The notes under the pieces were generated by a model. It saw only the letters and a program-made list of their open reading frames with translations, did not search any database and was not told the origin of the DNA. A stretch of 64,000 bases of DNA from Eubacteriales bacterium. GTDB taxonomy: Bacteria; Bacillota; Clostridia; Oscillospirales; UBA644. A program made the position numbers and the translations under genes. Position 1 is the first letter of the stretch. Each line of letters starts with the position of its first letter. The stretch is taken from NCBI GenBank assembly GCA_045637625.1, contig JAZTZU010000064.1:1081-65080 (forward strand), in the 5' to 3' direction. Shown here piece by piece: positions 42,021 to 53,088 of this stretch.

Positions 42021-42060
42021 GGTGCGTGGGTATCTTTTCATACGAAAAGATACCCACGCA
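42021..42060. terminator. Hairpin (REP-like) between convergent glgB and endolysin genes; left border of the phage-like cluster
   Basis: GG-TGCGTGGGTATCTTTTC-ATAC-GAAAAGATACCCACGCA. Confidence 0.7.
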
Positions 42061-42079: not shown

Positions 42080-42769
42080 TTATATGTCTTCAAACATATC
42101 CGTGATATATGCTGCAACGCCTGCATTTTTCAACTTCTCCACAACTTCTGCGGCAGCTTCAAGGTTTCTGTATAACCCGATCTGAACGCAGTAAAGAGGA
42201 GTTCTTTCCACCGTTTTTATGTCAGCGTCATCCTTATTTAAGTCTGCAATAAACCTGTCGAATGGGAAATCCTTTCCGGGACAGCCTGCTTTTTGCGTCG
42301 GATTTATATCCGAATGTGCAATAATATGTTCTCTGTCCGCATTGAATTCTACTCCGTAAATTCTTTTCAGTTCGCTTATTATATGTTTCATCAGGAAGAG
42401 CCCTGATTGATATTGATCTTCTGTCAGAATTCCGGTGTCATTATTCTCAAATTCAATAGATACTGTGTAGAAATTTGCATTGGTTTTCCTTTCTCTGACT
42501 ATTGCTGATTTTGATTTTGAATAATGGTAGGGGAGAGATTTATCTTTGGAATTTGATCCGTTTGCCCATGCCATTTTTTCAATGGGAACAAAATTATAAA
42601 TCTGTCCCTCTTTGTCTACAATATAATGTGCGCTCACCTTACTCAGCGGATTTTTAAACCAGTTTATAGCACTTTTTACCGCGCCTGCCGTCTGGTGACA
42701 GCATATCATATCAGGAACCCAGCCTTGCCTTGAACTCATGTTTACAGTTGTATATTCAATTATTTTCAT
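42080..42769 (-). CDS. Endolysin: N-acetylmuramoyl-L-alanine amidase (Amidase_2) with SPOR-like C-terminal domain
   Basis: HQT, SAHY, AWANG, SIEFE, AHSDI, CPG zinc-amidase motifs; YCVQIG C-terminal domain. Confidence 0.88.
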   Translation of the reverse strand: MKIIEYTTVNMSSRQGWVPDMICCHQTAGAVKSAINWFKNPLSKVSAHYIVDKEGQIYNFVPIEKMAWANGSNSKDKSLPYHYSKSKSAIVRERKTNANFYTVSIEFENNDTGILTEDQYQSGLFLMKHIISELKRIYGVEFNADREHIIAHSDINPTQKAGCPGKDFPFDRFIADLNKDDADIKTVERTPLYCVQIGLYRNLEAAAEVVEKLKNAGVAAYITDMFEDI

Positions 42770-43190
42770 TGTTATTCCTCTTTGATTCTATTTTTGTTTT
42801 TTCCGCTTCGTCGTTGACCTTTTTCAGAAAACCCGTGAGTACTGACGGTACAGGGATTCCGATTTCAACTGCGTTTTCCACAATTGAAAGACCTTCGTTT
42901 GAAAGATAGAAGAATATCACCGCAGTTCTCAGTACCTGCCCCGACCCAACCATGTGTACATCCAGAAGGTTTGCCATTCCGACGAAAATAAAAATCAGCA
43001 TTTTTTTCATCAACCCTTTGAATCCGATTTCGGAACAGAGCTCTTTTTTCAGGATTGCGGCCGTTACCCCTGTCAGATAGTCAATTACTGAAAAAATACA
43101 GAGAACTATCAGCAACCCGTCAAGCTTCCCGAAATAGAATCCAAGAACAGCGCCTATCACCGCAAAGGTGCTGTCAAAAAATGTCTTCAT
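42756..43190 (-). CDS. Phage holin (holin family 4)
   Basis: DYLTGV..A, SEIGFKG, YLSNEGLSIVEN, GIPVP. Confidence 0.9.
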   Translation of the reverse strand: MKTFFDSTFAVIGAVLGFYFGKLDGLLIVLCIFSVIDYLTGVTAAILKKELCSEIGFKGLMKKMLIFIFVGMANLLDVHMVGSGQVLRTAVIFFYLSNEGLSIVENAVEIGIPVPSVLTGFLKKVNDEAEKTKIESKRNNNENN

Positions 43191-43211: not shown

Positions 43212-44567
43212 TTATATTCCCGATACTTCCGTTACATTTCCGCTTTCGTCTGTCAAGGATACAAGATTTCCCGATTCGTCGAAACCGTATCTGTAAGAGC
43301 AAACAGTATCGTTTTCAAGTGTATATGAAACTCCGTTTTCGGTGAAATCCACTTTTTTCAAAGCCAAAAGCTTTTCGTGTACCGAGTGAATAGTTACTTT
43401 TTTCGCCGTTTTTTCCAGAGTTATATTTTTTCCTGCGAGAATGTCGTCAACGCTCATTCCTCCGTTAGACTTGGATCCTGCCCCTTGAACATCCCCGTCG
43501 TTTTTGTTTACCAACTGCCCGAACTGTTCTTTCCAGCCGTCAGGCGGTCTGTATCCGATCTCCGCTCCGCTGCTGTACCGGGCGGTTATTTCATAAACGA
43601 ATTCCCCGTTTTTCAAGCTTTTTCCGTAAATTTCCGTGATTATAAAGTCGGAAAAATCTTCGAATCCATAGTTTTTTGCCCTTACTCTGATTTTTTGAAA
43701 AAGCTCCAAACTATTGCGGCTTATTGAAAAATTCAATGTTACAGAATCATTTTCGTATGATCTTAGAATGTTCGCGGCGGCTTCAGCTGCTGAAGCTTCC
43801 GTCAGAATATTTCTGTTTACCGTAACGTTGGCATATTCTCCCGAACCACCGAATTCTGCCATTCTTGCAATCTCTTCTTCGTTTCTTGCCTCTCCCCGTA
43901 CATCGTTTTTTCCGAAAACTACCTGTACGTTTCTGTAGTCAGCAGCCTTTCCCACAAATTTTAATCCGGAAATATTTTTCACTTTATTTTCGCTGTCACC
44001 GTCAAGGTCTATGCAAAATCCACATTCTGTTACAGGTATGTTTTGTTTGAAGCAGAATTTTTTGTCGGAGGTCACCCACCACTTCTTTCCCGAAGCCTGC
44101 GCAAGGTCATCGAACAGCTTTGAAAGTTTTGCTCCCGCAGAAGAGTATGAGTCAATGATTTCCCCATCAAATTCAAAGTTGTCTTCGACATACTGAAATC
44201 CTTCTTCGCTTACAAGATATTCCAAAAATATCTCTTTTGCAACCTGACCTGCAGTCATATTTTCAAAAGAAAGTCCTCTGCTTACTTTTCTTGCGGCAAC
44301 CGACTCATATCCCTTGCATTTAACAGTCACGGTGCTTCTGAATTCCGATCTTCTGGTTTCTTTCGTTTCAGAGATTATTCCTCCCCATACTTTTTTCCCG
44401 TCAATGAACATTTCCGCCTCCATTCCCGTCCGTATTTCTGTTTCATTTGGGAAGGATTCTTCCATGGAAAATGCGATTTCAGTCAAAAATGTTCCGTACC
44501 TTGACCATCTGACAGAATCGGCTGCCACCTTTTTTGTTACATCAGTATGATTTACCGTGATCGTCAT
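43212..44567 (-). CDS. Putative tail tip / baseplate hub protein
   Basis: Position before the holin; 'KVWGGII', 'FDDLAQASGKKWWV' and 'YRNVQVV' resemble tail hub proteins. Confidence 0.5.
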   Translation of the reverse strand: MTITVNHTDVTKKVAADSVRWSRYGTFLTEIAFSMEESFPNETEIRTGMEAEMFIDGKKVWGGIISETKETRRSEFRSTVTVKCKGYESVAARKVSRGLSFENMTAGQVAKEIFLEYLVSEEGFQYVEDNFEFDGEIIDSYSSAGAKLSKLFDDLAQASGKKWWVTSDKKFCFKQNIPVTECGFCIDLDGDSENKVKNISGLKFVGKAADYRNVQVVFGKNDVRGEARNEEEIARMAEFGGSGEYANVTVNRNILTEASAAEAAANILRSYENDSVTLNFSISRNSLELFQKIRVRAKNYGFEDFSDFIITEIYGKSLKNGEFVYEITARYSSGAEIGYRPPDGWKEQFGQLVNKNDGDVQGAGSKSNGGMSVDDILAGKNITLEKTAKKVTIHSVHEKLLALKKVDFTENGVSYTLENDTVCSYRYGFDESGNLVSLTDESGNVTEVSGI

Positions 44568-44570
44568 CTT

Positions 44571-45035
44571 TTAGCCCTCCGTAATTTCAAATTCACCCTC
44601 AGTTCCTGCTCCGTTTATGTAAATATCACATTCAAACTCTGAAAAATAATCGTCTTCGGGAGCTCCTTCCGCGGAAGATCTCTTCATTACCACTACTACA
44701 GGAACGAGAATCCCGTCACAAACTCCGTTATCTAAAGAATTTCTGTCAAAAAGGATCGCTTCCGTCTCGCAGTCTTTGCCTGTTTTTCCGTAAAGATCGC
44801 AGATGAATTTGTTTGCCCTATCGTCTGAAACTTCCGTTCCGTTGATCCTTAAAAATTTCCTTACCCCCAAAACTTCTGTTTGCGCAAAATCATTACCTAC
44901 GAAAAATGTACTCATGGTATATGGCTCTGAAATTTTTCGTATTCGTTTTATGCCTTTTTTCAGCGGAACAAACTGTCCGTCTGCTTTCAGGCAAATTCCA
45001 ATATCTTGGCTTAAGTTAAGCTTCAATAAATCCAC
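44571..45035 (-). CDS. Putative tail tube protein
   Basis: 154 aa, position after head-tail genes, C-terminal FECDIYING.G. Confidence 0.5.
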   Translation of the reverse strand: MDLLKLNLSQDIGICLKADGQFVPLKKGIKRIRKISEPYTMSTFFVGNDFAQTEVLGVRKFLRINGTEVSDDRANKFICDLYGKTGKDCETEAILFDRNSLDNGVCDGILVPVVVVMKRSSAEGAPEDDYFSEFECDIYINGAGTEGEFEITEG

Positions 45036-45040
45036 CTCTT

Positions 45041-45460
45041 TTATTCTTCTATATACATCAGTTGGAATACTGCGCTGTATTCCTCTTCACCGCCTGTGCA
45101 TCTGACCGACATTGTAGGAAAATCCGTCCTGAAAGCTCTGATGAAAATCCTGCCTTCTCCCAGATCCATTTCCGTTGTCTTTTCCAATATTCTTGCCAGC
45201 TGTTCCAGCATCCCCAAAGTTTTCATTCTTGACGCAGAATCGTTTCCCGAAGTCCTGTAGGAAATCTCAAAATTCTGCCTTACGGAAACCGTCCCATCCA
45301 GCCACTCCGTGCGGCGACTCCCGTTGTTTATCATTTTTAAAGAAGCTGTTCCGCACTTTTTTTCAAGTCTTTCACAGCCAATATCCGGCATATGTTCAAT
45401 TCCTCTGAAGAAATTCAACAAGTATGCTGAAAGCGGTTTATAATTTGAATTTAAGTTCAT
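45041..45460 (-). CDS. Putative tail terminator / A118-type minor structural protein
   Basis: Size, position, 'WLDGTVSVRQNFEI' and terminal 'YSAVFQLMY'. Confidence 0.5.
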   Translation of the reverse strand: MNLNSNYKPLSAYLLNFFRGIEHMPDIGCERLEKKCGTASLKMINNGSRRTEWLDGTVSVRQNFEISYRTSGNDSASRMKTLGMLEQLARILEKTTEMDLGEGRIFIRAFRTDFPTMSVRCTGGEEEYSAVFQLMYIEE

Positions 45461-45476: not shown

Positions 45477-45941
45477 TTAGTCTGAATCCACGCTTCTGCC
45501 TCTTCCGGTAATTTCCAAGAGAGTAACTTTCCCGAAACTTCTGCATGGAATTACAGAGTTCACATAGTAGATCTCACGTTCTTTTTTTATTTCGTCGAGA
45601 TCCGGAATCTCATCGGCTTCAAAAGTACCGTAGGTTACAAGGTCGTGTTCCGTTACAGTCCAAAAGAATTTACGTTCTTCAATAGGCAGATTTTCCCATG
45701 TCGCAGGCGAAGTGTAGTCCAACTCGTTTCCGTCTCTGTCTTTAGCCTTGCTGATTTTTGTTCTGAAATAAAGCTTGAATCCATCGTATGGTTTTAAGCC
45801 CCTGTTTGATGCATAAATGCTGTCCCTGTTTTCAAATCTTACATTTTCAAGGATGAAAAACTCATACAAAGCTTTTCCCTCAGAATTTTCGCCTTTTTTG
45901 CGGCAGACGGTAACATTGTCATTTAAAAGTCTGTTGCTCAT
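45477..45941 (-). CDS. Putative head closure (stopper) protein
   Basis: Position, 'WTVTEHDLV', terminal 'LEITG'. Confidence 0.45.
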   Translation of the reverse strand: MSNRLLNDNVTVCRKKGENSEGKALYEFFILENVRFENRDSIYASNRGLKPYDGFKLYFRTKISKAKDRDGNELDYTSPATWENLPIEERKFFWTVTEHDLVTYGTFEADEIPDLDEIKKEREIYYVNSVIPCRSFGKVTLLEITGRGRSVDSD

Positions 45942-46118: not shown

Positions 46119-46526
46119 CTAAATTCCTCTGTAAAGCAGGCCTGCATTGTTCAGGATCCCCAATACCATTCCGGATACAGGTATTCCGAAAAATTCCTTC
46201 ATGGGTTTTCGGCTTATGTCATAACTTACTGCACCGTTCCCAAGCTCTTCCCTTGATATCTCAGATACAGGTCTTCCGGTATATGAGCTGTCTCCGTTGA
46301 CCGCAAAAATTTCAGTCTGTGCCGCAGTTGCTTTTTTTACCGCATCAAATCTTTTTACCCAGCGGAAATCTGAAGGGTTCATGTTCTCCATTACCGATTC
46401 TGCTCTTCCGAATGTTATGAAGTTTACAATATCCGAAGCTCTTGCTGCGAGTCTTTCAAAATCATCTTCGCTTATTTCTGCTCCGAAGTAGAAATTATCA
46501 TAATAATCCTTATCTATAAAAATCAT
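46119..46526 (-). CDS. Head-tail connector (adaptor) protein
   Basis: YY...Y/F.G, F..LA.RAS..V...T, KKATAAQ, terminal GLLYRGI. Confidence 0.7.
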   Translation of the reverse strand: MIFIDKDYYDNFYFGAEISEDDFERLAARASDIVNFITFGRAESVMENMNPSDFRWVKRFDAVKKATAAQTEIFAVNGDSSYTGRPVSEISREELGNGAVSYDISRKPMKEFFGIPVSGMVLGILNNAGLLYRGI

Positions 46527-46586: not shown

Positions 46587-47684
46587 TCATTCTCCGAGAA
46601 CTCGTACCGCAAGTTCAGGATAAAGTGTCTTGAAGCCGTAAAGTGTATCCACGGACATAGTCTGCTTTTTAGTAGCCATGTCATATCCGAAAGTCACCCT
46701 GAGAGTTATGCCGTTATAGCTTGTCACATAGCTTTCAGCACCTCTTGCTTTTTCCAAAGGTCTTGAAATGAATCCGAATGCGTTCTTATGGAAAGCAAGG
46801 TTTGCAGTATGGGAATCAATCAATGCAACTTCTGTACCTGCGGCAAAACCGTTCGCAGGGACTGCTGGATAAATATCAACATTCATTACGCCGCCTTCTG
46901 CTGTTGTGTCATTTTTTACTGTATATGTTTTGCCTTCTATCGTAAGAAGGTCACCTTTAACAAGAGAACCGGAGTCACAGCTTACCGCAATTTTCTTGTC
47001 TCCTTCAAAAGCTTCTGTTTTTACTGTAAGTGAACCGCTTGCAGAACCCTTTGAATGTTTGCAGATCTGATGGGAAGTGTAGTTTTCAAAACCGATTATC
47101 TTGCCGATAGAACCGTTTCTCAGCGCTTTTGTTGTTCCGCATTTTTCTGCGTTTACAATGTTTGTGTCACTCTGGAATTCCGCAAGTGCTGCGCTGTTCC
47201 AGATACAGGATCTGTCTGTGAGCGGTGCTTTGTTTTCGTTGAGCACCTTTGCTGCCTGTGCGAACGCGCCAATACCGGAAGGTGTCGTGCCTGCTTCTCC
47301 GCAAATATAGGGAATATCTTTATAAAGAGCGAGACCGTCCTTGTTTATCTTTTCTGCAATAGCTACTGCTGCAGGTTCAAGAACCTGTTTTGTGAAGTCG
47401 GAAAGGTTCAACGCCATTTCCTTTGCTGTAAGCTCAACGGAAACGTCCGCAATTCTGTCGAGAGTTACGAGCACGCTTTCTTCGGTTACGTCCTGAAGAT
47501 TGATTTCGCCTTCAAATTCGTCGGCTGTGTACATGGGCGGTTTTCTGACCTGTACTACATCACCTTTTTTGTTGTATTCGCTGGTACTGTTTCTGTATGT
47601 AAGTGCGGGGAATACGAGGTTTTCGTGAAGAATGGGGAGTGCAGCTCTTGCGATCTCCTGTACTGTAAGAAATTTGTTGTTCAT
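46587..47684 (-). CDS. Major capsid protein (P22 coat-like family)
   Basis: FLTVQEIARAAL, KGDVVQVRKP, LEPAAVAIAEKI, NLAFHKNAF, DTLYGFKTL.PELAVR. Confidence 0.8.
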   Translation of the reverse strand: MNNKFLTVQEIARAALPILHENLVFPALTYRNSTSEYNKKGDVVQVRKPPMYTADEFEGEINLQDVTEESVLVTLDRIADVSVELTAKEMALNLSDFTKQVLEPAAVAIAEKINKDGLALYKDIPYICGEAGTTPSGIGAFAQAAKVLNENKAPLTDRSCIWNSAALAEFQSDTNIVNAEKCGTTKALRNGSIGKIIGFENYTSHQICKHSKGSASGSLTVKTEAFEGDKKIAVSCDSGSLVKGDLLTIEGKTYTVKNDTTAEGGVMNVDIYPAVPANGFAAGTEVALIDSHTANLAFHKNAFGFISRPLEKARGAESYVTSYNGITLRVTFGYDMATKKQTMSVDTLYGFKTLYPELAVRVLGE

Positions 47685-47700: not shown

Positions 47701-48066
47701 TTATTTCATAATTTTTTTGTAGTATTCATCATCACTCAGGGAACTTGCGTCGGAAAGATCTCCGAAACCGAAATTCATTCCTGAAGAATAAAGTTTTGTA
47801 TCTGATTTTGTGTTTTCAAAAAGCCATGAGTTTTCCTCTTTAAGTTTTGCTATGTTTTTACTCAAGGATTCCTTGTCTATTCCGTTTTCAGTCAGGATTC
47901 CGTCCTTGTCAAGCATTACTTTTGCCGCTGCCATATTTTTGGGTCGCGCAAGGGCTATCTCTGTGTTTATTTCCGATTCTGCCCTTGTTCTGAAGAGTTC
48001 CTTTTCAAGCTCTTTGACTTGCTTTTTGAGAGTTTCGACCTCTGTTGTTTCGTTCATGTTTTCCAT
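47701..48066 (-). CDS. Capsid scaffolding protein (GP20-like, short)
   Basis: Coiled-coil N-terminus, 'KNMAAAK..LD', 'LKEENSWLF'; located before the capsid gene. Confidence 0.65.
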   Translation of the reverse strand: MENMNETTEVETLKKQVKELEKELFRTRAESEINTEIALARPKNMAAAKVMLDKDGILTENGIDKESLSKNIAKLKEENSWLFENTKSDTKLYSSGMNFGFGDLSDASSLSDDEYYKKIMK

Positions 48067-48068
48067 TT

Positions 48069-49475
48069 TTATTTCCTTTCTGTTTTTGACTTTGCGGTCT
48101 CCTCGTCTTCGCCAAAATGCTTCATTCTGAATTCGTAAGGCATCAGAATTCCTTCTTTTACAAGTTCGAGGTCCGTCTTTTGTCTGCTCTGTTTGTCTTC
48201 GATAATACTGTCATCGAAGACTACCGATATTCCCGGTTCTTCCGGAATGTCCAATCCTATAATTTCTCTGCCGATATACATCAGCGTTTTTACTAATGTG
48301 ATCAGCGCGCTTTCAAGCAGTATTTCATGCTTTTTCAAAGACCTGAACATTTCCGAGTTCTCGCTTATCACCTGCGTTGCTGTTACGGCGTTTCCCTTTT
48401 CAAAACCGTAGGATCTTTCGCTGAGACCGCATTTTGCTGCCAGATATCTCATCTGGTCTTTAAGTGCTTCCGTGTGTGCGGAAACTCTCAGTTCCGGATT
48501 GAATTCCTGGGGTATCATATCTCCGTCAAGATTTTTGTCTCCCACATACATGAACAGCTGTCTGTTGCAGTCCTGCGGTGCGAAGAAATTTCCGTGACTG
48601 TCCTGTTCCAACAGGTCTTTTCTTAGGAATACCATCTTTTTGCCAAGATAAAATTCCATATTCAGACTGTCGTAGCACAGGTCTATTCCTTTCAGAATAT
48701 CTGTTGCTGCCGCAAATATCGACATTCCCATAGGGGATTCCGGAGTTGCTGTATTTACTGTGTTTGGTTTTATCAGAACAAACCAGGGTTTACTGCTTCC
48801 CGTTCTCACTATCGGTGCAATATTTTCAGGGAGAGATATCTCTTCGAGACTCTGCGCATTGTACATTTTGCTTCGAATTACATATCCGTCATTCTCAAGG
48901 ATGTGACTCTGAACATAGACAAGCTCTTCTCCGCAAACAGTCATACAACCTGCAAAAGCTATGTCCATGACTTTTCCGTTTCTGTGCGATATCGGGAAAA
49001 TATTCTCAGCACCCACGTATTCAAAGGCGATTTCGCCTTTCGGGGATTTTTTCAGCTTGCCGTCCTCATCTATTTCAGCATTTTCAATGTTTACAGTAAT
49101 AGCCCCTGTACCCAGCGCGAATGCTTTTTCAATAAGTCTGTTCGTTTCAGCCCTGAAATTGTTTTTTCCGAAGACGCCTCCATAGCCATCCTTGCCTTGA
49201 AGAAAATCCATTGCAGTGCTGTCGTTTACTGTTATATACGTCTTTTCGTTGAACAGCAGATCCGCCCAATCTTCCGCCACTTTTTTTGCCATTTTCAGTT
49301 TGAACATCGGCCTCTTTACTACTTCTATTCCGTTGTTGATTTCCACCGTATGGAACTCATCGTCCTTTCCGCAGTACCAGTCATTCCACATTTTTATGTG
49401 AAACCTCATTTCGTTTTCGCAAAAGCGGTCTCCAATCGCTTTTTTTACCGCTTCTTCAAGATAATTTCCAATCAT
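48069..49475 (-). CDS. Portal protein (SPP1/A118 type)
   Basis: W..WY.G, MAKKVAEDWADLLFNE, GMSIF, TATQVISENS, FDDSIIED. Confidence 0.88.
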   Translation of the reverse strand: MIGNYLEEAVKKAIGDRFCENEMRFHIKMWNDWYCGKDDEFHTVEINNGIEVVKRPMFKLKMAKKVAEDWADLLFNEKTYITVNDSTAMDFLQGKDGYGGVFGKNNFRAETNRLIEKAFALGTGAITVNIENAEIDEDGKLKKSPKGEIAFEYVGAENIFPISHRNGKVMDIAFAGCMTVCGEELVYVQSHILENDGYVIRSKMYNAQSLEEISLPENIAPIVRTGSSKPWFVLIKPNTVNTATPESPMGMSIFAAATDILKGIDLCYDSLNMEFYLGKKMVFLRKDLLEQDSHGNFFAPQDCNRQLFMYVGDKNLDGDMIPQEFNPELRVSAHTEALKDQMRYLAAKCGLSERSYGFEKGNAVTATQVISENSEMFRSLKKHEILLESALITLVKTLMYIGREIIGLDIPEEPGISVVFDDSIIEDKQSRQKTDLELVKEGILMPYEFRMKHFGEDEETAKSKTERK

Positions 49476-49479
49476 TTTT

Positions 49480-50811
49480 TCACCTTCTTTCGTTTGTAAA
49501 GATCAGTTGTTTGCTGAATCTTTCCCATGCGTACTCTTCTGCGTCTGCCGTATCAATGTCAGTTGAGCCGTTGTCAAGTCGCTTGTCAGGGTGTGCTGTG
49601 TCCCACATTTGTGCTGCAGTGCTTTCAATTACATTTTTGCAGCTCTCAAGAACGCACCATCTGTCTTCAGCCATAAGTCTGCTTTTGCATGATACCCTTT
49701 CCGCTATCGGAAGTTTTCTGCTGTCGGATATCCCGGTTTTTATTCCCGCCCGCCTAAGTGCTTTTTTCATTCCATTGGTCAGGTATTGTGCTTCGCTGTC
49801 TGCAAAAATGTACTGAACAGGATATTCGGGAAAATCTTTTTCAAGTTCACGGTAAAATTTGATAAAACCCTCTTCCACCTCCGTTGGTGTGATTTCACCT
49901 TTTTTACCCGAAATTTTCGTGTCTTTCAGTACGCACAATCCTGCCATCCCCCTGCGAATACCTACCGCAACAAACGCAGATGCTGACATTGTTCCGCCGT
50001 AGTCTATTCCGATAACAACATGAGAAATATCGTCGGGAGGTTTCTGCTTTATCCACCTTTCAGGATTCTGCACAAAATTCATGAATATCAGTCCTTCAGC
50101 GGCGGCTCTTTCCCCGAGAATGCACCTTTTATACCAGAAGCTGCCGGGAACATATTGCTTTGTGATTTCTTCGATTCTGTCTTCGCTTATGGCGCGGTTA
50201 TCGAATATAGTGAATTTTTTATGGTTTACATCAAGCCCGTCCGCAATATACCTGTCTATGTATTTTTTGTATATCGCATGGTTTGGGTGGTCGGGGTTGA
50301 AGTCCCATAAAATTCGCCTCATTCCCGAAGCCAACAATCTGTTGAATGCTTCCGAAACAAAACAGTGGTCATCGTCTGAAATGTAATGCTTGTTTACCTC
50401 TGACGCGATCCACATTCCGTAGGAGTTTCCTCGGATTTTTTTGTAGCTGTCAGATTTTCCTCCGCCTGCAAAAATAACGACTCTTTCAAGTTTTTTCTTT
50501 GTTGTGATGAACAGCGCTGTAGTTCCCTTGTATTGACCCCAATGGCATCTCCCTCGGAAAATATGCTCAAGACCAAAACCGTTACAGTCGCCGATATTCA
50601 TGCAGGCAGCTGAAAGGGAGGTCCCTGTGGCAAGATGGAGCTTGTCAGGGGATCTTTCCAACAGCATTGCAAAAGCGTAAACATTGCTTATTGTTTTTCC
50701 CGAACGAACAGCCCCCTCGGCGAAATTGTAGGTGTGGCGGAGACACGCAGAGATATACTCTTTGTGAAGTTTTGAAAAGGGCTTCCATTTTATTTTTTTC
50801 GATCTTACCAT
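49480..50811 (-). CDS. Large terminase subunit (PBSX family)
   Basis: Walker A EGAVRSGKT, KIRG, Walker B WIASE, DFNP, nuclease GIDYG / FADS / DTADA..YA. Confidence 0.9.
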   Translation of the reverse strand: MVRSKKIKWKPFSKLHKEYISACLRHTYNFAEGAVRSGKTISNVYAFAMLLERSPDKLHLATGTSLSAACMNIGDCNGFGLEHIFRGRCHWGQYKGTTALFITTKKKLERVVIFAGGGKSDSYKKIRGNSYGMWIASEVNKHYISDDDHCFVSEAFNRLLASGMRRILWDFNPDHPNHAIYKKYIDRYIADGLDVNHKKFTIFDNRAISEDRIEEITKQYVPGSFWYKRCILGERAAAEGLIFMNFVQNPERWIKQKPPDDISHVVIGIDYGGTMSASAFVAVGIRRGMAGLCVLKDTKISGKKGEITPTEVEEGFIKFYRELEKDFPEYPVQYIFADSEAQYLTNGMKKALRRAGIKTGISDSRKLPIAERVSCKSRLMAEDRWCVLESCKNVIESTAAQMWDTAHPDKRLDNGSTDIDTADAEEYAWERFSKQLIFTNERR

Positions 50812-51135
50812 TTAATCGCCGTCTCCGAAAACCTCCAGTTCATCGAAATCCTCAATCTCATCTTCGGGTCTTCTTTTCCAAAGTCCAAGATAATCGCCCA
50901 GTTTCAAAAGGGCAGTCAGCTTGTTGTACATTTTGAATCTGAATCCCGATTTTCCGTTGCGAATTTCAGCCACCGCGCGAATGTCAACCTTGTCGCTGTT
51001 TTTGACAGACACCACAACTTCTCCGTTCTCGTTTTCCGCATAACTTATGTAATTGTCAATGTTGTCAAAAGCTATTTTTGCCAGCTCCTGAATAACTCTT
51101 TCTTCGGTGACTTTTTCTTTTTTCTTCTTCGGCAT
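50812..51135 (-). CDS. Small terminase subunit, apparently lacking the N-terminal HTH
   Basis: VTEERVIQELAKIAF and KMYNKLTALLKLGDYLGLW match the C-terminal part of Terminase_2; GAGGTG RBS. Confidence 0.75.
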   Translation of the reverse strand: MPKKKKEKVTEERVIQELAKIAFDNIDNYISYAENENGEVVVSVKNSDKVDIRAVAEIRNGKSGFRFKMYNKLTALLKLGDYLGLWKRRPEDEIEDFDELEVFGDGD

Positions 51136-51161
51136 TTACTCACCTCTCTTTCCGTGTTTAT

Positions 51162-51236
51162 ATTATATCACTAATCGTGTATCTAAAACTGTTGGATTTA
51201 TCCACAGTTTGTGTTTGTTTTTATCACATATTGTGA
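51162..51236 (-). promoter_or_regulatory. Putative activator-dependent promoter of the phage-like operon
   Basis: Extended -10 TGATATAAT (51162-51170) with no -35; palindromes at 51186-51210 (containing TTATCCACA) and 51224-51236. Confidence 0.55.
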
Positions 51237-51257
51237 CTATAACTGTGCTAAATTATC

Positions 51258-51457
51258 AAGTTTGCAATGATTTTCAACTAATAGGCTCTGATTACGAAGA
51301 GTGTAAACAGCTTTTTTGAAAGATGATCCGGATATTGTAATCGAAAATATGATGAGGAAGTTTCTTTTCGCTCGTTAAAACTTCAGATTTCAGTATACGG
51401 TCCTTATGGAAAAGTTGAATCTGTAATGGTTGCAAAAGAAGGATATTTCCAATCTTA
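51258..51457 (+). pseudogene. Probable degraded gene remnant
   Basis: Protein-like segments in shifting frames (FQLIGSDYEECKQL / DDPDIVIEN / QISVYGPYGKVESVMVAKEGYFQS*) followed by a terminator. Confidence 0.35.
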
Positions 51458-51458
51458 A

Positions 51459-51494
51459 AAATTAAGGGGTCGGTTTTGCCGACCCTTTTAATTT
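51459..51494 (+). terminator. Intrinsic terminator
   Basis: AAGGGGTCGG-TTTTG-CCGACCCTTT hairpin. Confidence 0.6.
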
Positions 51495-51539
51495 ATGCGG
51501 AATCTGTAATTTATTTAAAAATTTAATTTGTTAAACCCA

Positions 51540-51568
51540 TTGACTTTTCAAATTTAATGTGGTATAAT
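51540..51568 (+). promoter_or_regulatory. sigma-A promoter
   Basis: TTGACT-N17-TATAAT with extended TG. Confidence 0.7.
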
Positions 51569-51600
51569 TTGTTTGAAAATAATTTCAGGAGGAATCCTTT

Positions 51601-53088
51601 ATGAAAAAACCGATTTACATGAACATTGATATCAATAGTTGCACAACTCCTTATCTGAATAAAATGTCCAAAGAGGAAAATATTTCAGAGGCTACGCTCT
51701 ATTCCTACATGGATCAGTATGCAAACACGGGAATCACGGATATTCTTATTGACGTTTTCTGCCAATACTCAGCCACCGATTCAAAAATCTGGACAACTTA
51801 TGCAGACAAATATTTGCAGAAAATCGAAAACGGGGTAGAGGTGGATTATACCGACCGTTATAAGGGCCTTTATAAGTTCAACAAAATTCACGGCATTGAC
51901 CCCCATACGGTTTGGTTTAAAAGATGCCGCGAGATCGGTATAAATCCTTGGATTTCCATACGCATGAATGACTGCCATTGCCCTGACGATGATGCTTGCT
52001 TCCTCCGCAGTGATTTCTTCTACGAAGCCCGTGAAAAAGGCTGGATGGTAGGGGATAAATATGGTTATTTCCGATACTGTTTTGACTATGCGGTAAAAGA
52101 AGTCCGTCAAAAAATGCTTGATTATATTGAAGAGCAGATAAACCGCTACGATGTTTACGGCATCGAACTTGATTTCCAGCGCGAAATAGTTTGCTTTGAC
52201 TATCTGGATAATAAAAATTGCGCAGAAATTATGAACGACTTCATGCGCAATGCTTATAAAATTATTAAAAATGCTGAAAAAATTCACGGTCACGAAATTA
52301 AGATCGCAGTCAGATTGCAGCGTGATATTGAGCAGAATCTTATATACGGTTTTGATGCAAAAACCTGGAACGATGAAAAGCTTGTTGATCTTATCGTTGT
52401 TACCCCAAGATGGGAAACATGTGATACGGATATGCCCATTTCCCAATGGGTCGACACTTTGAAAAACACCGAGATCGTTGCAGGCATAGAAACATTGCTT
52501 TCGCAGCCCCATTTTGTTTCCCATGCATCGCCCGAACATGTTCGCGGTATGATGAATAAGTATCTGCAGCAGGGTTCCGAGGGTACATACCTTTTCAATT
52601 ATTTCACCATTCCATGGCGTGATTACAGCCGTTGTTTTGAGATATTCAACACATGTACAGACATTGATACCATTCAGAGTTTACCTCAGCGTCACGCCTT
52701 GGGTTTCCAGGATATTGCCCCCGAAGGCTGTAACCGCTGGAAGATCCTTCCCGCAGAATTTGATACCGTTTTTGAATTTGAAATCACTACCGGAAAGCTC
52801 CCGGTAGGAAAAAATCTGTCCGTAGTTTTAGGCTTTGAGATCGGTTCTCCCTCAGATGCTGTCATTGAGGTCAACGGTAATCTCTGCGATAATTTTGAAG
52901 CAGTTGACCCCTTTGATTTATCGCCTACTTCCACAGCACAGCTATGTGAAGATAAGTGGAATGACATCGAAACTTACTATTATCGTTGTCTTGCAGGCGT
53001 TTGCGATGGTTCCGACACCTACAAAATAAAAATAACCTCAAACGGTTCTAAGCTTAAGCTTATCGCCGCCGAGGTTGATTTGTATTAA
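51601..53088 (+). CDS. Putative glycoside hydrolase-like TIM-barrel protein (GHL10-like)
   Basis: WISIRMNDCH, FDYA..EVR, YGIELDFQR, YLFNY. Confidence 0.6.
   Translation: MKKPIYMNIDINSCTTPYLNKMSKEENISEATLYSYMDQYANTGITDILIDVFCQYSATDSKIWTTYADKYLQKIENGVEVDYTDRYKGLYKFNKIHGIDPHTVWFKRCREIGINPWISIRMNDCHCPDDDACFLRSDFFYEAREKGWMVGDKYGYFRYCFDYAVKEVRQKMLDYIEEQINRYDVYGIELDFQREIVCFDYLDNKNCAEIMNDFMRNAYKIIKNAEKIHGHEIKIAVRLQRDIEQNLIYGFDAKTWNDEKLVDLIVVTPRWETCDTDMPISQWVDTLKNTEIVAGIETLLSQPHFVSHASPEHVRGMMNKYLQQGSEGTYLFNYFTIPWRDYSRCFEIFNTCTDIDTIQSLPQRHALGFQDIAPEGCNRWKILPAEFDTVFEFEITTGKLPVGKNLSVVLGFEIGSPSDAVIEVNGNLCDNFEAVDPFDLSPTSTAQLCEDKWNDIETYYYRCLAGVCDGSDTYKIKITSNGSKLKLIAAEVDLY

What the first reader, a model, noticed from the sequence alone, without database searches (positions are those of the whole stretch)
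50812..51135. Small terminase appears to lack its DNA-recognition helix-turn-helix
Seen: the 107-aa protein starts MPKKKKEK immediately before 'VTEERVIQELAKIAF', has a good RBS (GAGGTG), and an in-frame stop lies just upstream. Established: Terminase_2-family TerS normally carry an N-terminal HTH (…EYL.D.NATQAAIRAGYS…) that binds the pac site, and the RcGTA small terminase is similarly short and reported to lack a DNA-binding domain. Inference: losing pac specificity would give sequence-independent headful packaging, a GTA hallmark. The lysine run could provide non-specific DNA binding.
Basis: partly seen in the sequence, partly recalled or inferred. Interest (0 to 1): 0.8.

Follow-up and report, generated by a model that had tools for sequence, protein, structure and literature searches.

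The report
Small terminase without its DNA-recognition domain
A gut bacterium carries a compact, inherited set of phage head, tail and lysis genes whose small terminase has lost the part that normally recognises phage DNA, which fits a gene transfer agent rather than a live phage.

Summary
Window 50812..51135 (-) encodes a 107-aa Terminase_2 protein that matches only profile positions 57-137 of 141. A TAA directly precedes its ATG, and no frame is open upstream. A confident model (pLDDT 87) shows helix, four strands, helix and no helix-turn-helix.

The loss is old and maintained. All orthologues found in five genera of one family are short. Median dN/dS is 0.078. 22 of 23 distant genome relatives and 6 of 6 inspected phage or virome relatives keep the HTH.

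The gene heads a 9-kb self-contained unit: TerS, TerL, portal, scaffold, capsid, connectors, tube-like protein, tip protein, holin and amidase. No integrase, replication or repressor gene was found, and host genes flank it. It is single-copy in 30 of 46 family genomes and co-diverges with DnaE.

The gene-transfer-agent reading is therefore well supported by context, but random packaging is not shown. DBD-less TerS are already described for RcGTA and for FpGTA of Faecalibacterium, so I file this as a new member of a known kind. The lysine-run idea is weak: the run aligns with the ancestral linker and is missing in one genus.

The parts
50812..51135 (-). terS: 107-aa small terminase (Terminase_2 core only, no HTH). 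Basic N-terminal tail at residues 1-9, helix-4 strands-helix core at 11-83, acidic tail at 89-107.
51141..51146 (-). Ribosome-binding site GAGGTG, 5 nt before the ATG. An in-frame TAA lies at 51136-51138.
   Evidence: sequence read directly
51162..51170 (-). Extended -10 promoter-like element TGATATAAT. It is conserved at the same distance in same-genus orthologues. The consensus scanner did not call it because it has no -35.
51464..51488 (.). Two-way terminator-like hairpin that insulates the cluster from the divergent host gene at 51601.
49480..50811 (-). terL, 443 aa, PBSX-type large terminase. Its ATG directly follows the terS stop codon.
48069..49475 (-). Portal protein, 468 aa.
   Evidence: phrog_533, 2.3e-90
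47701..48066 (-). Scaffolding protein, 121 aa.
46587..47684 (-). Major capsid protein, 365 aa, P22 coat family.
   Evidence: PF11651, 2.7e-43
46119..46526 (-). Head-tail adaptor, 135 aa.
   Evidence: phrog_541, 3.7e-23
45477..45941 (-). Conserved 154-aa protein, connector-like (phrog_3366).
45041..45460 (-). Tail-completion-like protein, 139 aa (weak match).
   Evidence: phrog_3266, 1.8e-4
44571..45035 (-). Tail-tube-like protein, 154 aa.
   Evidence: phrog_820, 6e-10; tube_lmo2291, below cut-off
43212..44567 (-). 451-aa tail-tip or hub-like protein. Gp37-like and Prophage_tail are leads only.
42756..43190 (-). Holin (Phage_holin_4_1).
   Evidence: 4.1e-38
42080..42769 (-). Endolysin: Amidase_2 plus SPOR domain.
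42023..42060 (.). 17-bp-stem terminator-like hairpin ending both the cluster and the convergent glgB.

Best explanation
The gene is a functional small terminase of the Terminase_2 (SPP1/SF6 G1P) family. [quoted passage not shown] It kept the linker, the oligomerisation core and an acidic C-terminal tail.

It is the first gene of a 9-kb, self-contained head, short-tail and lysis operon. The operon runs from its own promoter at about 51170 to a terminator at about 42040, which are consensus-type matches only. The operon has been inherited vertically in one family of ruminant-gut Oscillospiraceae-like Clostridia.

Inferred mechanism:
- The TerS ring still recruits and regulates TerL, since terS and terL abut and look translationally coupled.
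- Without HTH arms it cannot read a pac site.
- TerL therefore starts headful packaging on any cellular DNA.
- The holin and amidase then release the particles, which makes the element a gene transfer agent or a PBSX-like particle.

Shown here: the domain loss, its age, selection on the gene, and the domesticated context. Inferred: ring formation, TerL binding, non-specific packaging and transfer.
For: Domain loss:
- Pfam matches only profile 57-137 of 141.
- No coding potential lies upstream.
- The model at pLDDT 87 has no HTH.
- The 8 BFVD neighbours at E<=1e-3 are 175-278 aa, four of them named small terminase.

The loss is derived and clade-wide:
- The TerS profile finds one copy in 10 of 15 same-genus genomes, 7 of 21 genomes of other genera of the family, and 0 of 24 other families.
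- All orthologues, including the divergent g10 form, are about 104-120 aa with no HTH.
- 22 of 23 distant homologues in named genomes have the HTH. The 23rd starts at a contig end.
- 116 of 154 database representatives have 35 or more N-terminal extra residues.

The gene is functional: dN/dS for TerS has median 0.078 and range 0.011-0.147 over 14 pairs with dS<2. That compares with TerL 0.068, portal 0.10 and MCP 0.10.

Domesticated context:
- No integrase, replication or repressor gene turned up in the window cluster or in the 15 related loci, whose ORFs I mapped by similarity. Ten flank or TerS ORFs from six of those loci were put through Pfam.
- Flanks are host genes: glgB and a 495-aa gene here, GH18 and ackA in seven other species.
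- The capsid gene is single-copy in 30 of 46 family genomes: g10 12/12, g8 4/4.
- Outside the family it appears in only 3 of 374 order genomes.
- The tree of TerL+portal+MCP has the same sister pairs and backbone as the DnaE tree in 10 genomes. Pairwise identities correlate at r=0.97 over 45 non-independent pairs.

Precedent:
- RcGTA gp1 lacks the DBD and binds DNA weakly and non-specifically (passages of PMC6854486).
[quoted passage not shown] It makes 40-nm particles carrying 8.4-8.9 kb of random host DNA (section 9 of PMC12946183).

Weak hint of expression: contigs of one metatranscriptome library lie on terS 50906-51123, terL and the 154-aa gene.
Against: - No particle, packaged-DNA or transfer data exist for this organism.
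- The RNA-library contigs may be DNA carry-over.
- Capsid size is unknown, so the criterion 'head too small for its own genes' is untested.
- No tape-measure gene lies in the cluster, so a complete tail is not assured.
- The cluster is not universal. It was not found in G005 and G014 (98% complete) or in G004, a close relative that is 87% complete.
- 38 of 154 database representatives are also short. Many look like truncated gene calls, but some may be real HTH-less TerS of phages whose context I could not see.
- SF6/SPP1 TerS without the N-terminal region retains some DNA binding, as cited in PMC6854486. Loss of the HTH therefore need not abolish all recognition.
- One orthologue (G008) carries an in-frame TAG.
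Confidence: 0.55

Rival explanations
1. PBSX-like killer or defective particle. The domesticated cluster packages random host DNA because its TerS has no specificity. The particles act as a bacteriocin-like or lysis device and do not deliver DNA to recipients.
For: The context evidence is the same as for the GTA reading. TerL best matches the 'PBSX family' model, though below its cut-off. The tail module is minimal and has no tape measure, which could mean no productive DNA injection.
Against: Nothing separates it from the GTA reading with these tools. The nearest characterised element in related bacteria, FpGTA, is interpreted as a GTA.
Confidence: 0.2
2. Capsid-forming phage satellite or other mobile element. 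The short TerS redirects packaging to the element, and missing functions come from a helper prophage such as the one on contig C40.
For: A second, ordinary prophage with its own TerL and a 1349-aa tape measure exists in the genome. A preprint notes that similar small clusters resemble capsid-forming satellites (passages of 10.64898/2026.07.08.737213).
Against: No integrase, primase/replicase or regulator was found in the 15 loci mapped by similarity, or among the ten flank or TerS ORFs from six of them put through Pfam. The cluster tree matches the host tree, the locus is fixed within clades, and each genome has one copy. No empty-site joint was seen in four metagenome runs, which is weak evidence because only contigs were laid.
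Confidence: 0.08
3. The element still packages specifically. Recognition has moved to another surface, such as the beta-hairpin face, the basic tail or TerL, or to a separate factor. The missing HTH would then not mean random packaging.
For: T4 and P22 TerS have DNA-binding activity outside the N-terminus, and N-terminally deleted SF6/SPP1 TerS keep some binding, as cited in PMC6854486. The basic N-terminal tail is conserved in four of five genera.
Against: No second Terminase_2 or split HTH gene was found in the genome. The basic tail is absent in g10. No mobile or replicating genome exists for it to recognise.
Confidence: 0.1
4. Decaying prophage remnant. The short ORF is a broken gene with no role.
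For: One orthologue has an in-frame TAG. Several orthologues lack a canonical start codon. The cluster was not found in some complete genomes of the genus.
Against: dN/dS is about 0.08, equal to TerL. All 12 genes keep their order across five genera. The promoter and ribosome site are conserved. The truncation point is identical in all orthologues.
Confidence: 0.05

Closest known systems
RcGTA gp1 (Rhodobacter capsulatus GTA small terminase; Sherlock, Leong & Fogg 2019, PMC6854486, passages read)
   Same: [quoted passage not shown] It lies directly upstream of terL in a cluster without replication or integration genes. It is the proposed basis of random packaging.
   Different: No sequence relationship was shown. 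The paper likens RcGTA gp1 to T4-like TerS (44RR), whereas this protein is a Terminase_2 (SPP1/SF6) core. The host phylum and the cluster differ: RcGTA is about 15 kb, has a tape measure and has lysis genes elsewhere (this last point is recalled, not from a call).
FpGTA operon I of Faecalibacterium prausnitzii (Borodovich et al. 2026, PMC12946183; abstract, section 9 and passages read; supplements closed)
   Same: A roughly 10-kb operon in a gut Clostridia relative: TerS without an obvious DNA-binding domain, TerL, portal, scaffold, capsid and a few conserved proteins. It has no replication genes, short or no visible tails, and is present in all strains of a genus.
   Different: Homology is untested, because no FpGTA sequence was available to me. 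This capsid protein has matches at E<=1e-20 in only 3 of 374 genomes of other families of the order, so it is probably a separate lineage. Here the holin and endolysin sit in the same operon rather than at a second locus.
SF6 / SPP1 G1P small terminase (PDB 3zqp, 3zqq, 2cmp, 4zc3)
   Same: Same Pfam family. A deep profile containing this protein hits 3zqp at 3.4e-24. The core helix motif (..VLxELxxIAF..) and the second helix (..KALxxLGkhLG..) are shared.
   Different: SF6 has the HTH DBD that is missing here. This subfamily has a longer beta insert between the two core helices. Foldseek similarity to the crystal core is not significant (3zqp_B, E=2).
PBSX defective prophage of Bacillus subtilis (recalled)
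   Same: A chromosomally fixed phage-derived particle of a Firmicute that packages host DNA. TerL here matches the 'PBSX family' model TIGR01547 (70.5 bits, below its 105-bit cut-off).
   Different: PBSX is about 28 kb with a contractile tail (recalled). I did not test whether its TerS keeps an HTH.
Capsid-forming PICI satellites (Alqurainy et al. 2023, cited; not read)
   Same: A small cluster with its own TerS, TerL, portal and capsid.
   Different: Those carry integrase, regulators and replication genes and move horizontally. None of these genes was found here, and the cluster co-diverges with the host.

Membership tests
Pfam Terminase_2 (PF03592) small terminase | Score above the curated gathering cut-off | tested here: met
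   42.6 bits against 26.1, E 1.2e-10. It is the single such gene in the genome.
Pfam Terminase_2 (PF03592) small terminase | [quoted passage not shown] | tested here: not met
   The match starts at profile position 57. A stop codon lies directly upstream. The model has no HTH.
Pfam Terminase_2 (PF03592) small terminase | Oligomerisation core (two helices around a beta insert) | tested here: met
   Profile 57-137 is aligned. The model shows H11-23, four strands and H72-83 at pLDDT above 94. BFVD TerS neighbours give TMq 0.56-0.72.
Pfam Terminase_2 (PF03592) small terminase | Forms an 8-11-mer ring and binds TerL | not tested
   I ran no complex prediction. Only gene adjacency and coupling with terL were seen.
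Gene transfer agent (GTA) | Phage-like structural and packaging genes without replication, integration or lysogeny genes | tested here: met
   for the window. In 15 related loci the ORFs were mapped by similarity. Ten flank or TerS ORFs from six of those loci were put through Pfam.
Gene transfer agent (GTA) | Vertically inherited, conserved in a host lineage, under purifying selection | tested here: met
   30 of 46 family genomes have one copy each. The trees are congruent and r=0.97. dN/dS is 0.07-0.23.
Gene transfer agent (GTA) | 'GTA-type' TerS lacking the specific DNA-binding domain (criterion proposed in PMC6854486) | tested here: met
Gene transfer agent (GTA) | Particles carry random host DNA, less than needed to encode the particle | not testable with these tools
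   Needs sequencing of particle DNA. Capsid size is unknown.
Gene transfer agent (GTA) | Delivers DNA to recipient cells | not testable with these tools
   Needs a cultured carrier and a transfer assay.
FpGTA-type element (Faecalibacterium) | Sequence homology of TerS, TerL, portal and capsid to FpGTA operon I | not testable with these tools
   No FpGTA sequence was at hand and supplements are closed. None of the few source names shown among the best 120 capsid homologues (52% identity or more) mentions Faecalibacterium; most rows carry no name. Matches outside the own family: 3 of 374 genomes.
Capsid-forming phage satellite (cf-PICI) | Integrase, regulator and replication module; horizontal mobility | tested here: not met

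The most novel reading that the evidence does not exclude
This is an active, previously undescribed GTA lineage of ruminant-gut Oscillospiraceae-like bacteria, with three features:
- It is a one-locus, 9-kb minimal GTA comprising packaging, T=3-sized head, tape-measure-less stub tail and lysis.
- A clean deletion of the HTH from an SPP1/SF6-type small terminase was the step that turned a pac phage into a random packager.
- TerS dosage is kept low by rare start codons (ATA/ATC/CTG) in most lineages.

It would be a natural, evolution-validated 'DBD-deletion mutant' of the structurally best-understood TerS family.
Probability: 0.4. Interest if true: 0.7.

Novelty: new member of a known kind. Interest (0 to 1): 0.55.

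Why it matters
GTAs are hard to tell from dead prophages. Very few are known outside Alphaproteobacteria, and the first in gut Clostridia was reported only in 2026.

This case offers a sequence-level marker. It is a Terminase_2 core with the HTH cleanly removed. It has been kept under strong selection for as long as genera of a family have diverged. It sits in a 9-kb unit small enough to clone whole.

The parent family has crystal structures of both domains (SF6). The protein is therefore a ready test of how much packaging specificity lies in the HTH ring.

If the particles are active, they would be a route of gene flow among fibre-degrading rumen and hindgut bacteria.

Tried and rejected
- HTH encoded upstream, by frameshift or as a split gene: rejected. 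All three frames of 51136-51620 are full of stops, and the genome has one Terminase_2 match.
- Rfam scan of the window for a leader RNA: 0 matches at gathering thresholds.
- First fold with 5 sequences: pLDDT 56.9, unusable. Refolded with 150 sequences.
- PDB by sequence with the narrow profiles A1 and A2: no terminase hit. Only the deep profile A3 found SF6.
- Foldseek against PDB: nothing at E<=0.001. SF6 core ranked 18 and 30 with E 2-2.6.
- tblastn of the protein against 50,697 phage records: no match at 1e-3.
- IMG/VR scan with A1: one 5.9-kb fragment only.
- Nearest cultured phages by TerL are C. difficile phiCD111-like, at 42-44% identity. They use an unrelated 235-aa PF10668 TerS, so they say nothing about the ancestral state.
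- Apparent short TerS of Fusobacterium phage FNU_1P (136 aa): rejected as an artefact. The HTH half lies at the other end of the linear record.
- Short database representatives (38 of 154): their context cannot be seen. Several start inside the third HTH helix and look like truncated calls. They are not used as evidence either way.
- Lysine run as the DNA-binding device: down-weighted.
- Laying four public runs: no contig joins across the cluster, and uncovered parts mean nothing because only contigs were laid.
- Complex prediction was not used. A pass would not have changed my odds on the main claim.
- The pdb_via_wide library was not available.

Full report
**1. The observation**

The minus-strand ORF 50812..51135 encodes 107 aa starting MPKKKKEKVTEERVIQELAKIAF.
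- GAGGTG lies 5 nt before the ATG, and an in-frame TAA directly precedes it.
- The terS stop is followed at once by the terL ATG at 50811.
- The 465 bp up to the next, divergent gene contain stops in all three frames.
- Rfam finds nothing in the window.
- Pfam Terminase_2 is matched above its cut-off (42.6 against 26.1 bits), but only over profile positions 57-137 of 141. PHROGs name it small terminase.

**2. What is missing, and what the fold looks like**

A 150-sequence family alignment (A3) gives a profile that hits several PDB entries:
- SF6 small terminase 3zqp at 3.4e-24.
- The DBD-only entries 2cmp and 4zc3, which cover profile positions 1-58 and 1-66.

By eye against the printed consensus, the window protein starts in the linker ('..rteITaerVleELakIAf..', which is SF6 '..EKKILQANEVLEHLTRIAL'). 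This places it just after the DBD.

AlphaFold2 on A3 gives mean pLDDT 87.2, with values above 94 for residues 11-80:
- Helix 11-23.
- Strands 30-34, 40-44, 55-61 and 64-69.
- Helix 72-83.
- A low-confidence acidic tail.
- No helix-turn-helix.

An earlier fold with 5 sequences was unusable.

Foldseek finds no significant PDB neighbour; the SF6 core has E=2. In BFVD, all 8 hits at E<=1e-3 are 175-278 aa, and four of them are named terminase small subunit. They align to the whole query but to only a quarter to two-fifths of themselves.

Charge along the protein is +4 in residues 1-10 and -9 in residues 89-107, with pI 5.0.

**3. Do relatives share the truncation?**

Close database relatives are 104-112 aa, apart from two fragments.

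The TerS profile was searched in 61 genomes including the window's own:

| Group | Genomes with one copy |
|---|---|
| Same genus | 10 of 15 |
| Other genera of the family | 7 of 21 |
| Other families of the order | 0 of 24 |

- Every orthologue begins at the same point, with at most a dozen extra residues.
- Pfam on the representatives of two other genera again starts at profile positions 55-64.
- In genus g10 the TerS is so diverged that Pfam misses it and hhalign gives only 65% probability. It is nevertheless about 110 aa, has the same '..SKSGGGKIRFFDKAAAIALAKSIGVF..' core and acidic tail, and lacks both an HTH and a lysine run.

More distant relatives keep the HTH:
- 22 of 23 homologues in named genomes carry ..LTxKQxxFvxEYLiDLNATqAAIRAGYS.. 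53-122 residues ahead of the core. The 23rd starts at a contig end.
- Of the 154 proteins kept from the exhaustive HMMER search (1,692 hits at E<=1e-3), 116 have 35 or more extra N-terminal residues and 38 do not. Seven of those 38 are this clade, and several others start inside the HTH and look like truncated calls.

**4. Active phages**

The protein itself has no tblastn match in 50,697 phage records.

I searched with two unrelated short representatives and found 10 and 47 records. I inspected six of them:

| Record | TerS |
|---|---|
| FP_Lugh | 164 aa, with HTH |
| phiPaco | 168 aa, with HTH |
| FNU_1P | gene cut by the record's start; the HTH half lies at the record's end |
| MT835552 | with HTH |
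| MT836120 | HTH partly present |
| AB434P2 | with HTH |

Six of six have the HTH. This is a small, hand-picked sample, not a census.

**5. The surrounding element**

The operon runs from about 51170 to 42080 on the minus strand. In order, it holds:
- terS and terL.
- Portal, scaffold and a P22-type capsid protein.
- Adaptor, a 50-aa ORF and a 154-aa connector-like protein.
- A tail-completion-like protein and a tube-like 154-aa protein.
- A 451-aa tip or hub-like protein.
- Holin and an amidase-SPOR endolysin.

Its boundaries and limits:
- An extended -10 (TGATATAAT, 51162-51170) is conserved in same-genus orthologues.
- Terminator-like hairpins bracket the unit at 51464-51488 and 42023-42060.
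- The flanks are glgB and an unknown 495-aa gene.
- It has no tape measure, integrase, repressor or replication gene.
- The genome does hold a separate ordinary prophage on contig C40.

**6. Is it domesticated?**

Fifteen related loci from five genera keep the gene order. None shows an integrase or replication gene. All their ORFs were mapped by similarity, and ten flank or TerS ORFs from six of the loci were put through Pfam.

Location:
- The closest species has the same glgB locus as the window.
- Seven further species of the genus share another locus: GH18 and a 411-aa gene | cluster + DUF6273 protein | ackA.
- Two g8 genomes share a third locus.

Distribution of the capsid gene:
- It is single-copy in 30 of 46 family genomes, counting G000: g1 12/16, g8 4/4, g9 1/1, g10 12/12, g5 1/4, and none in five genera.
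- In a 401-genome sample of the order it is in 15 of 26 family genomes, not counting G000, but in only 3 of 374 others.

Co-divergence, tested in ten genomes:
- The TerL+portal+capsid tree and the DnaE tree share all four sister pairs and the backbone. They differ only at nodes with support 0.25-0.6.
- Pairwise identities correlate at Pearson 0.97 and Spearman 0.88 over 45 non-independent pairs.

Median dN/dS, from pairs with dS<2:

| Gene | Median dN/dS |
|---|---|
| TerS | 0.078 |
| TerL | 0.068 |
| Portal | 0.10 |
| Capsid | 0.10 |
| 451-aa protein | 0.18 |
| Tube-like protein | 0.23 |

Evidence against a universal role:
- The cluster was not found in G005 and G014 (98% complete) or in G004 (87% complete; DnaE 91% identical).
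- One orthologue has an in-frame TAG.

**7. Public reads**

Twenty runs from eleven studies of animal gut or faeces hold part of the stretch, and one of them is an RNA library.

Small near-identical contigs from that library lie on three genes:
- terS, 50906-51123.
- terL, 49513-49763.
- The 154-aa gene, 45554-45797.

This is a hint of transcription only, because DNA carry-over is not excluded. No contig joins across the cluster.

**8. What is known**

- Sherlock et al. 2019 (PMC6854486, passages) showed three things. RcGTA gp1 starts with the coiled-coil domain. It lacks a DNA-binding domain. It binds DNA weakly and non-specifically. They proposed this as the defining trait of GTA-type TerS.
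- Borodovich et al. 2026 (PMC12946183; abstract, section 9 and passages) describe FpGTA in Faecalibacterium.
  - It makes 40-nm particles carrying 8.4-8.9 kb of random host DNA.
  - A second locus holds the lysis genes.
- A 2026 preprint lists further candidates in Oscillospiraceae and neighbouring families (passages).

I could not compare sequences with FpGTA, and supplements are closed. The near-absence of this capsid gene outside its own family suggests a separate lineage. Neither point proves it.

None returned a description of this cluster or of an HTH-less Terminase_2.

**9. Verdict**

The missing HTH is real, ancient and selected, and the element has the genomic hallmarks of a GTA or PBSX-like particle.

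Three things remain inferred:
- Random packaging.
- DNA transfer.
- Any role of the lysine run.

The lysine run is homologous to the ancestral linker and is dispensable in one genus.

I file this as a new member of a known kind. It has two unusual side features worth following: a tail module without a tape measure, and non-canonical start codons on terS in many orthologues.

Noticed in passing
L021, L022, L027 (terS starts; genomes G009, G013, G010); L033 4540-4570 (G029): Several orthologous terS genes have a good Shine-Dalgarno site but no in-frame ATG, GTG or TTG after it. The codon aligned with the window's start region is ATA or ATC ('IRKKKEK'). In g10 the first plausible start is CTG. 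One NCBI record annotates the ATA start. This may mean deliberately weak TerS translation.
   Followed up: partly
window 43212-45460: The tail module is minimal. A tail-completion-like protein, a 154-aa tube-like protein and a 451-aa tip or hub-like protein come directly before the lysis genes. There are no tape measure, chaperones or Dit. FpGTA particles are reported with short or no tails.
   Followed up: partly
G000 contig C40, about 23-33 kb: The same genome holds a second, ordinary-looking prophage: a TerL of family PF03354 and a tape-measure ORF of 1349 aa.
   Followed up: no
L021-L027 (seven same-genus species): In this sub-clade no holin or amidase homologue lies in the fetched 16-19.5 kb. 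A DUF6273 protein follows the tip protein instead. A GH18 hydrolase and a 411-aa unknown sit upstream of terS on the same strand. The tip protein is about 360 aa there, against 451 aa in the window.
   Followed up: partly
L028-L030, L032 (genera g8, g9): No scaffold gene lies between portal and capsid. A scaffold-like 110-aa gene sits after the tip protein, before the holin.
   Followed up: no
L007 (G008 contig C188): The terS orthologue carries an in-frame TAG after 11 codons of the open frame. This is either a pseudogene or an assembly error.
   Followed up: no
L068 / L071 (Fusobacterium phage FNU_1P, MZ503612.1): The annotated 136-aa 'terminase small subunit' at bases 1-411 is the 3' part of a gene cut by the linearisation point. 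The HTH half is encoded at the very end of the record.
   Followed up: yes
L020 14540-18500 (G002): The closest relative has about 4 kb of extra ORFs between terS and the 495-aa flank gene. These are absent from the window, and two have homologues on G000 contig C81.
   Followed up: no
window 50906-51123, 49513-49763, 45554-45797: Near-identical contigs from one gut metatranscriptome library (X20) lie on terS, terL and the 154-aa gene. This hints at expression, but DNA carry-over is not excluded.
   Followed up: partly
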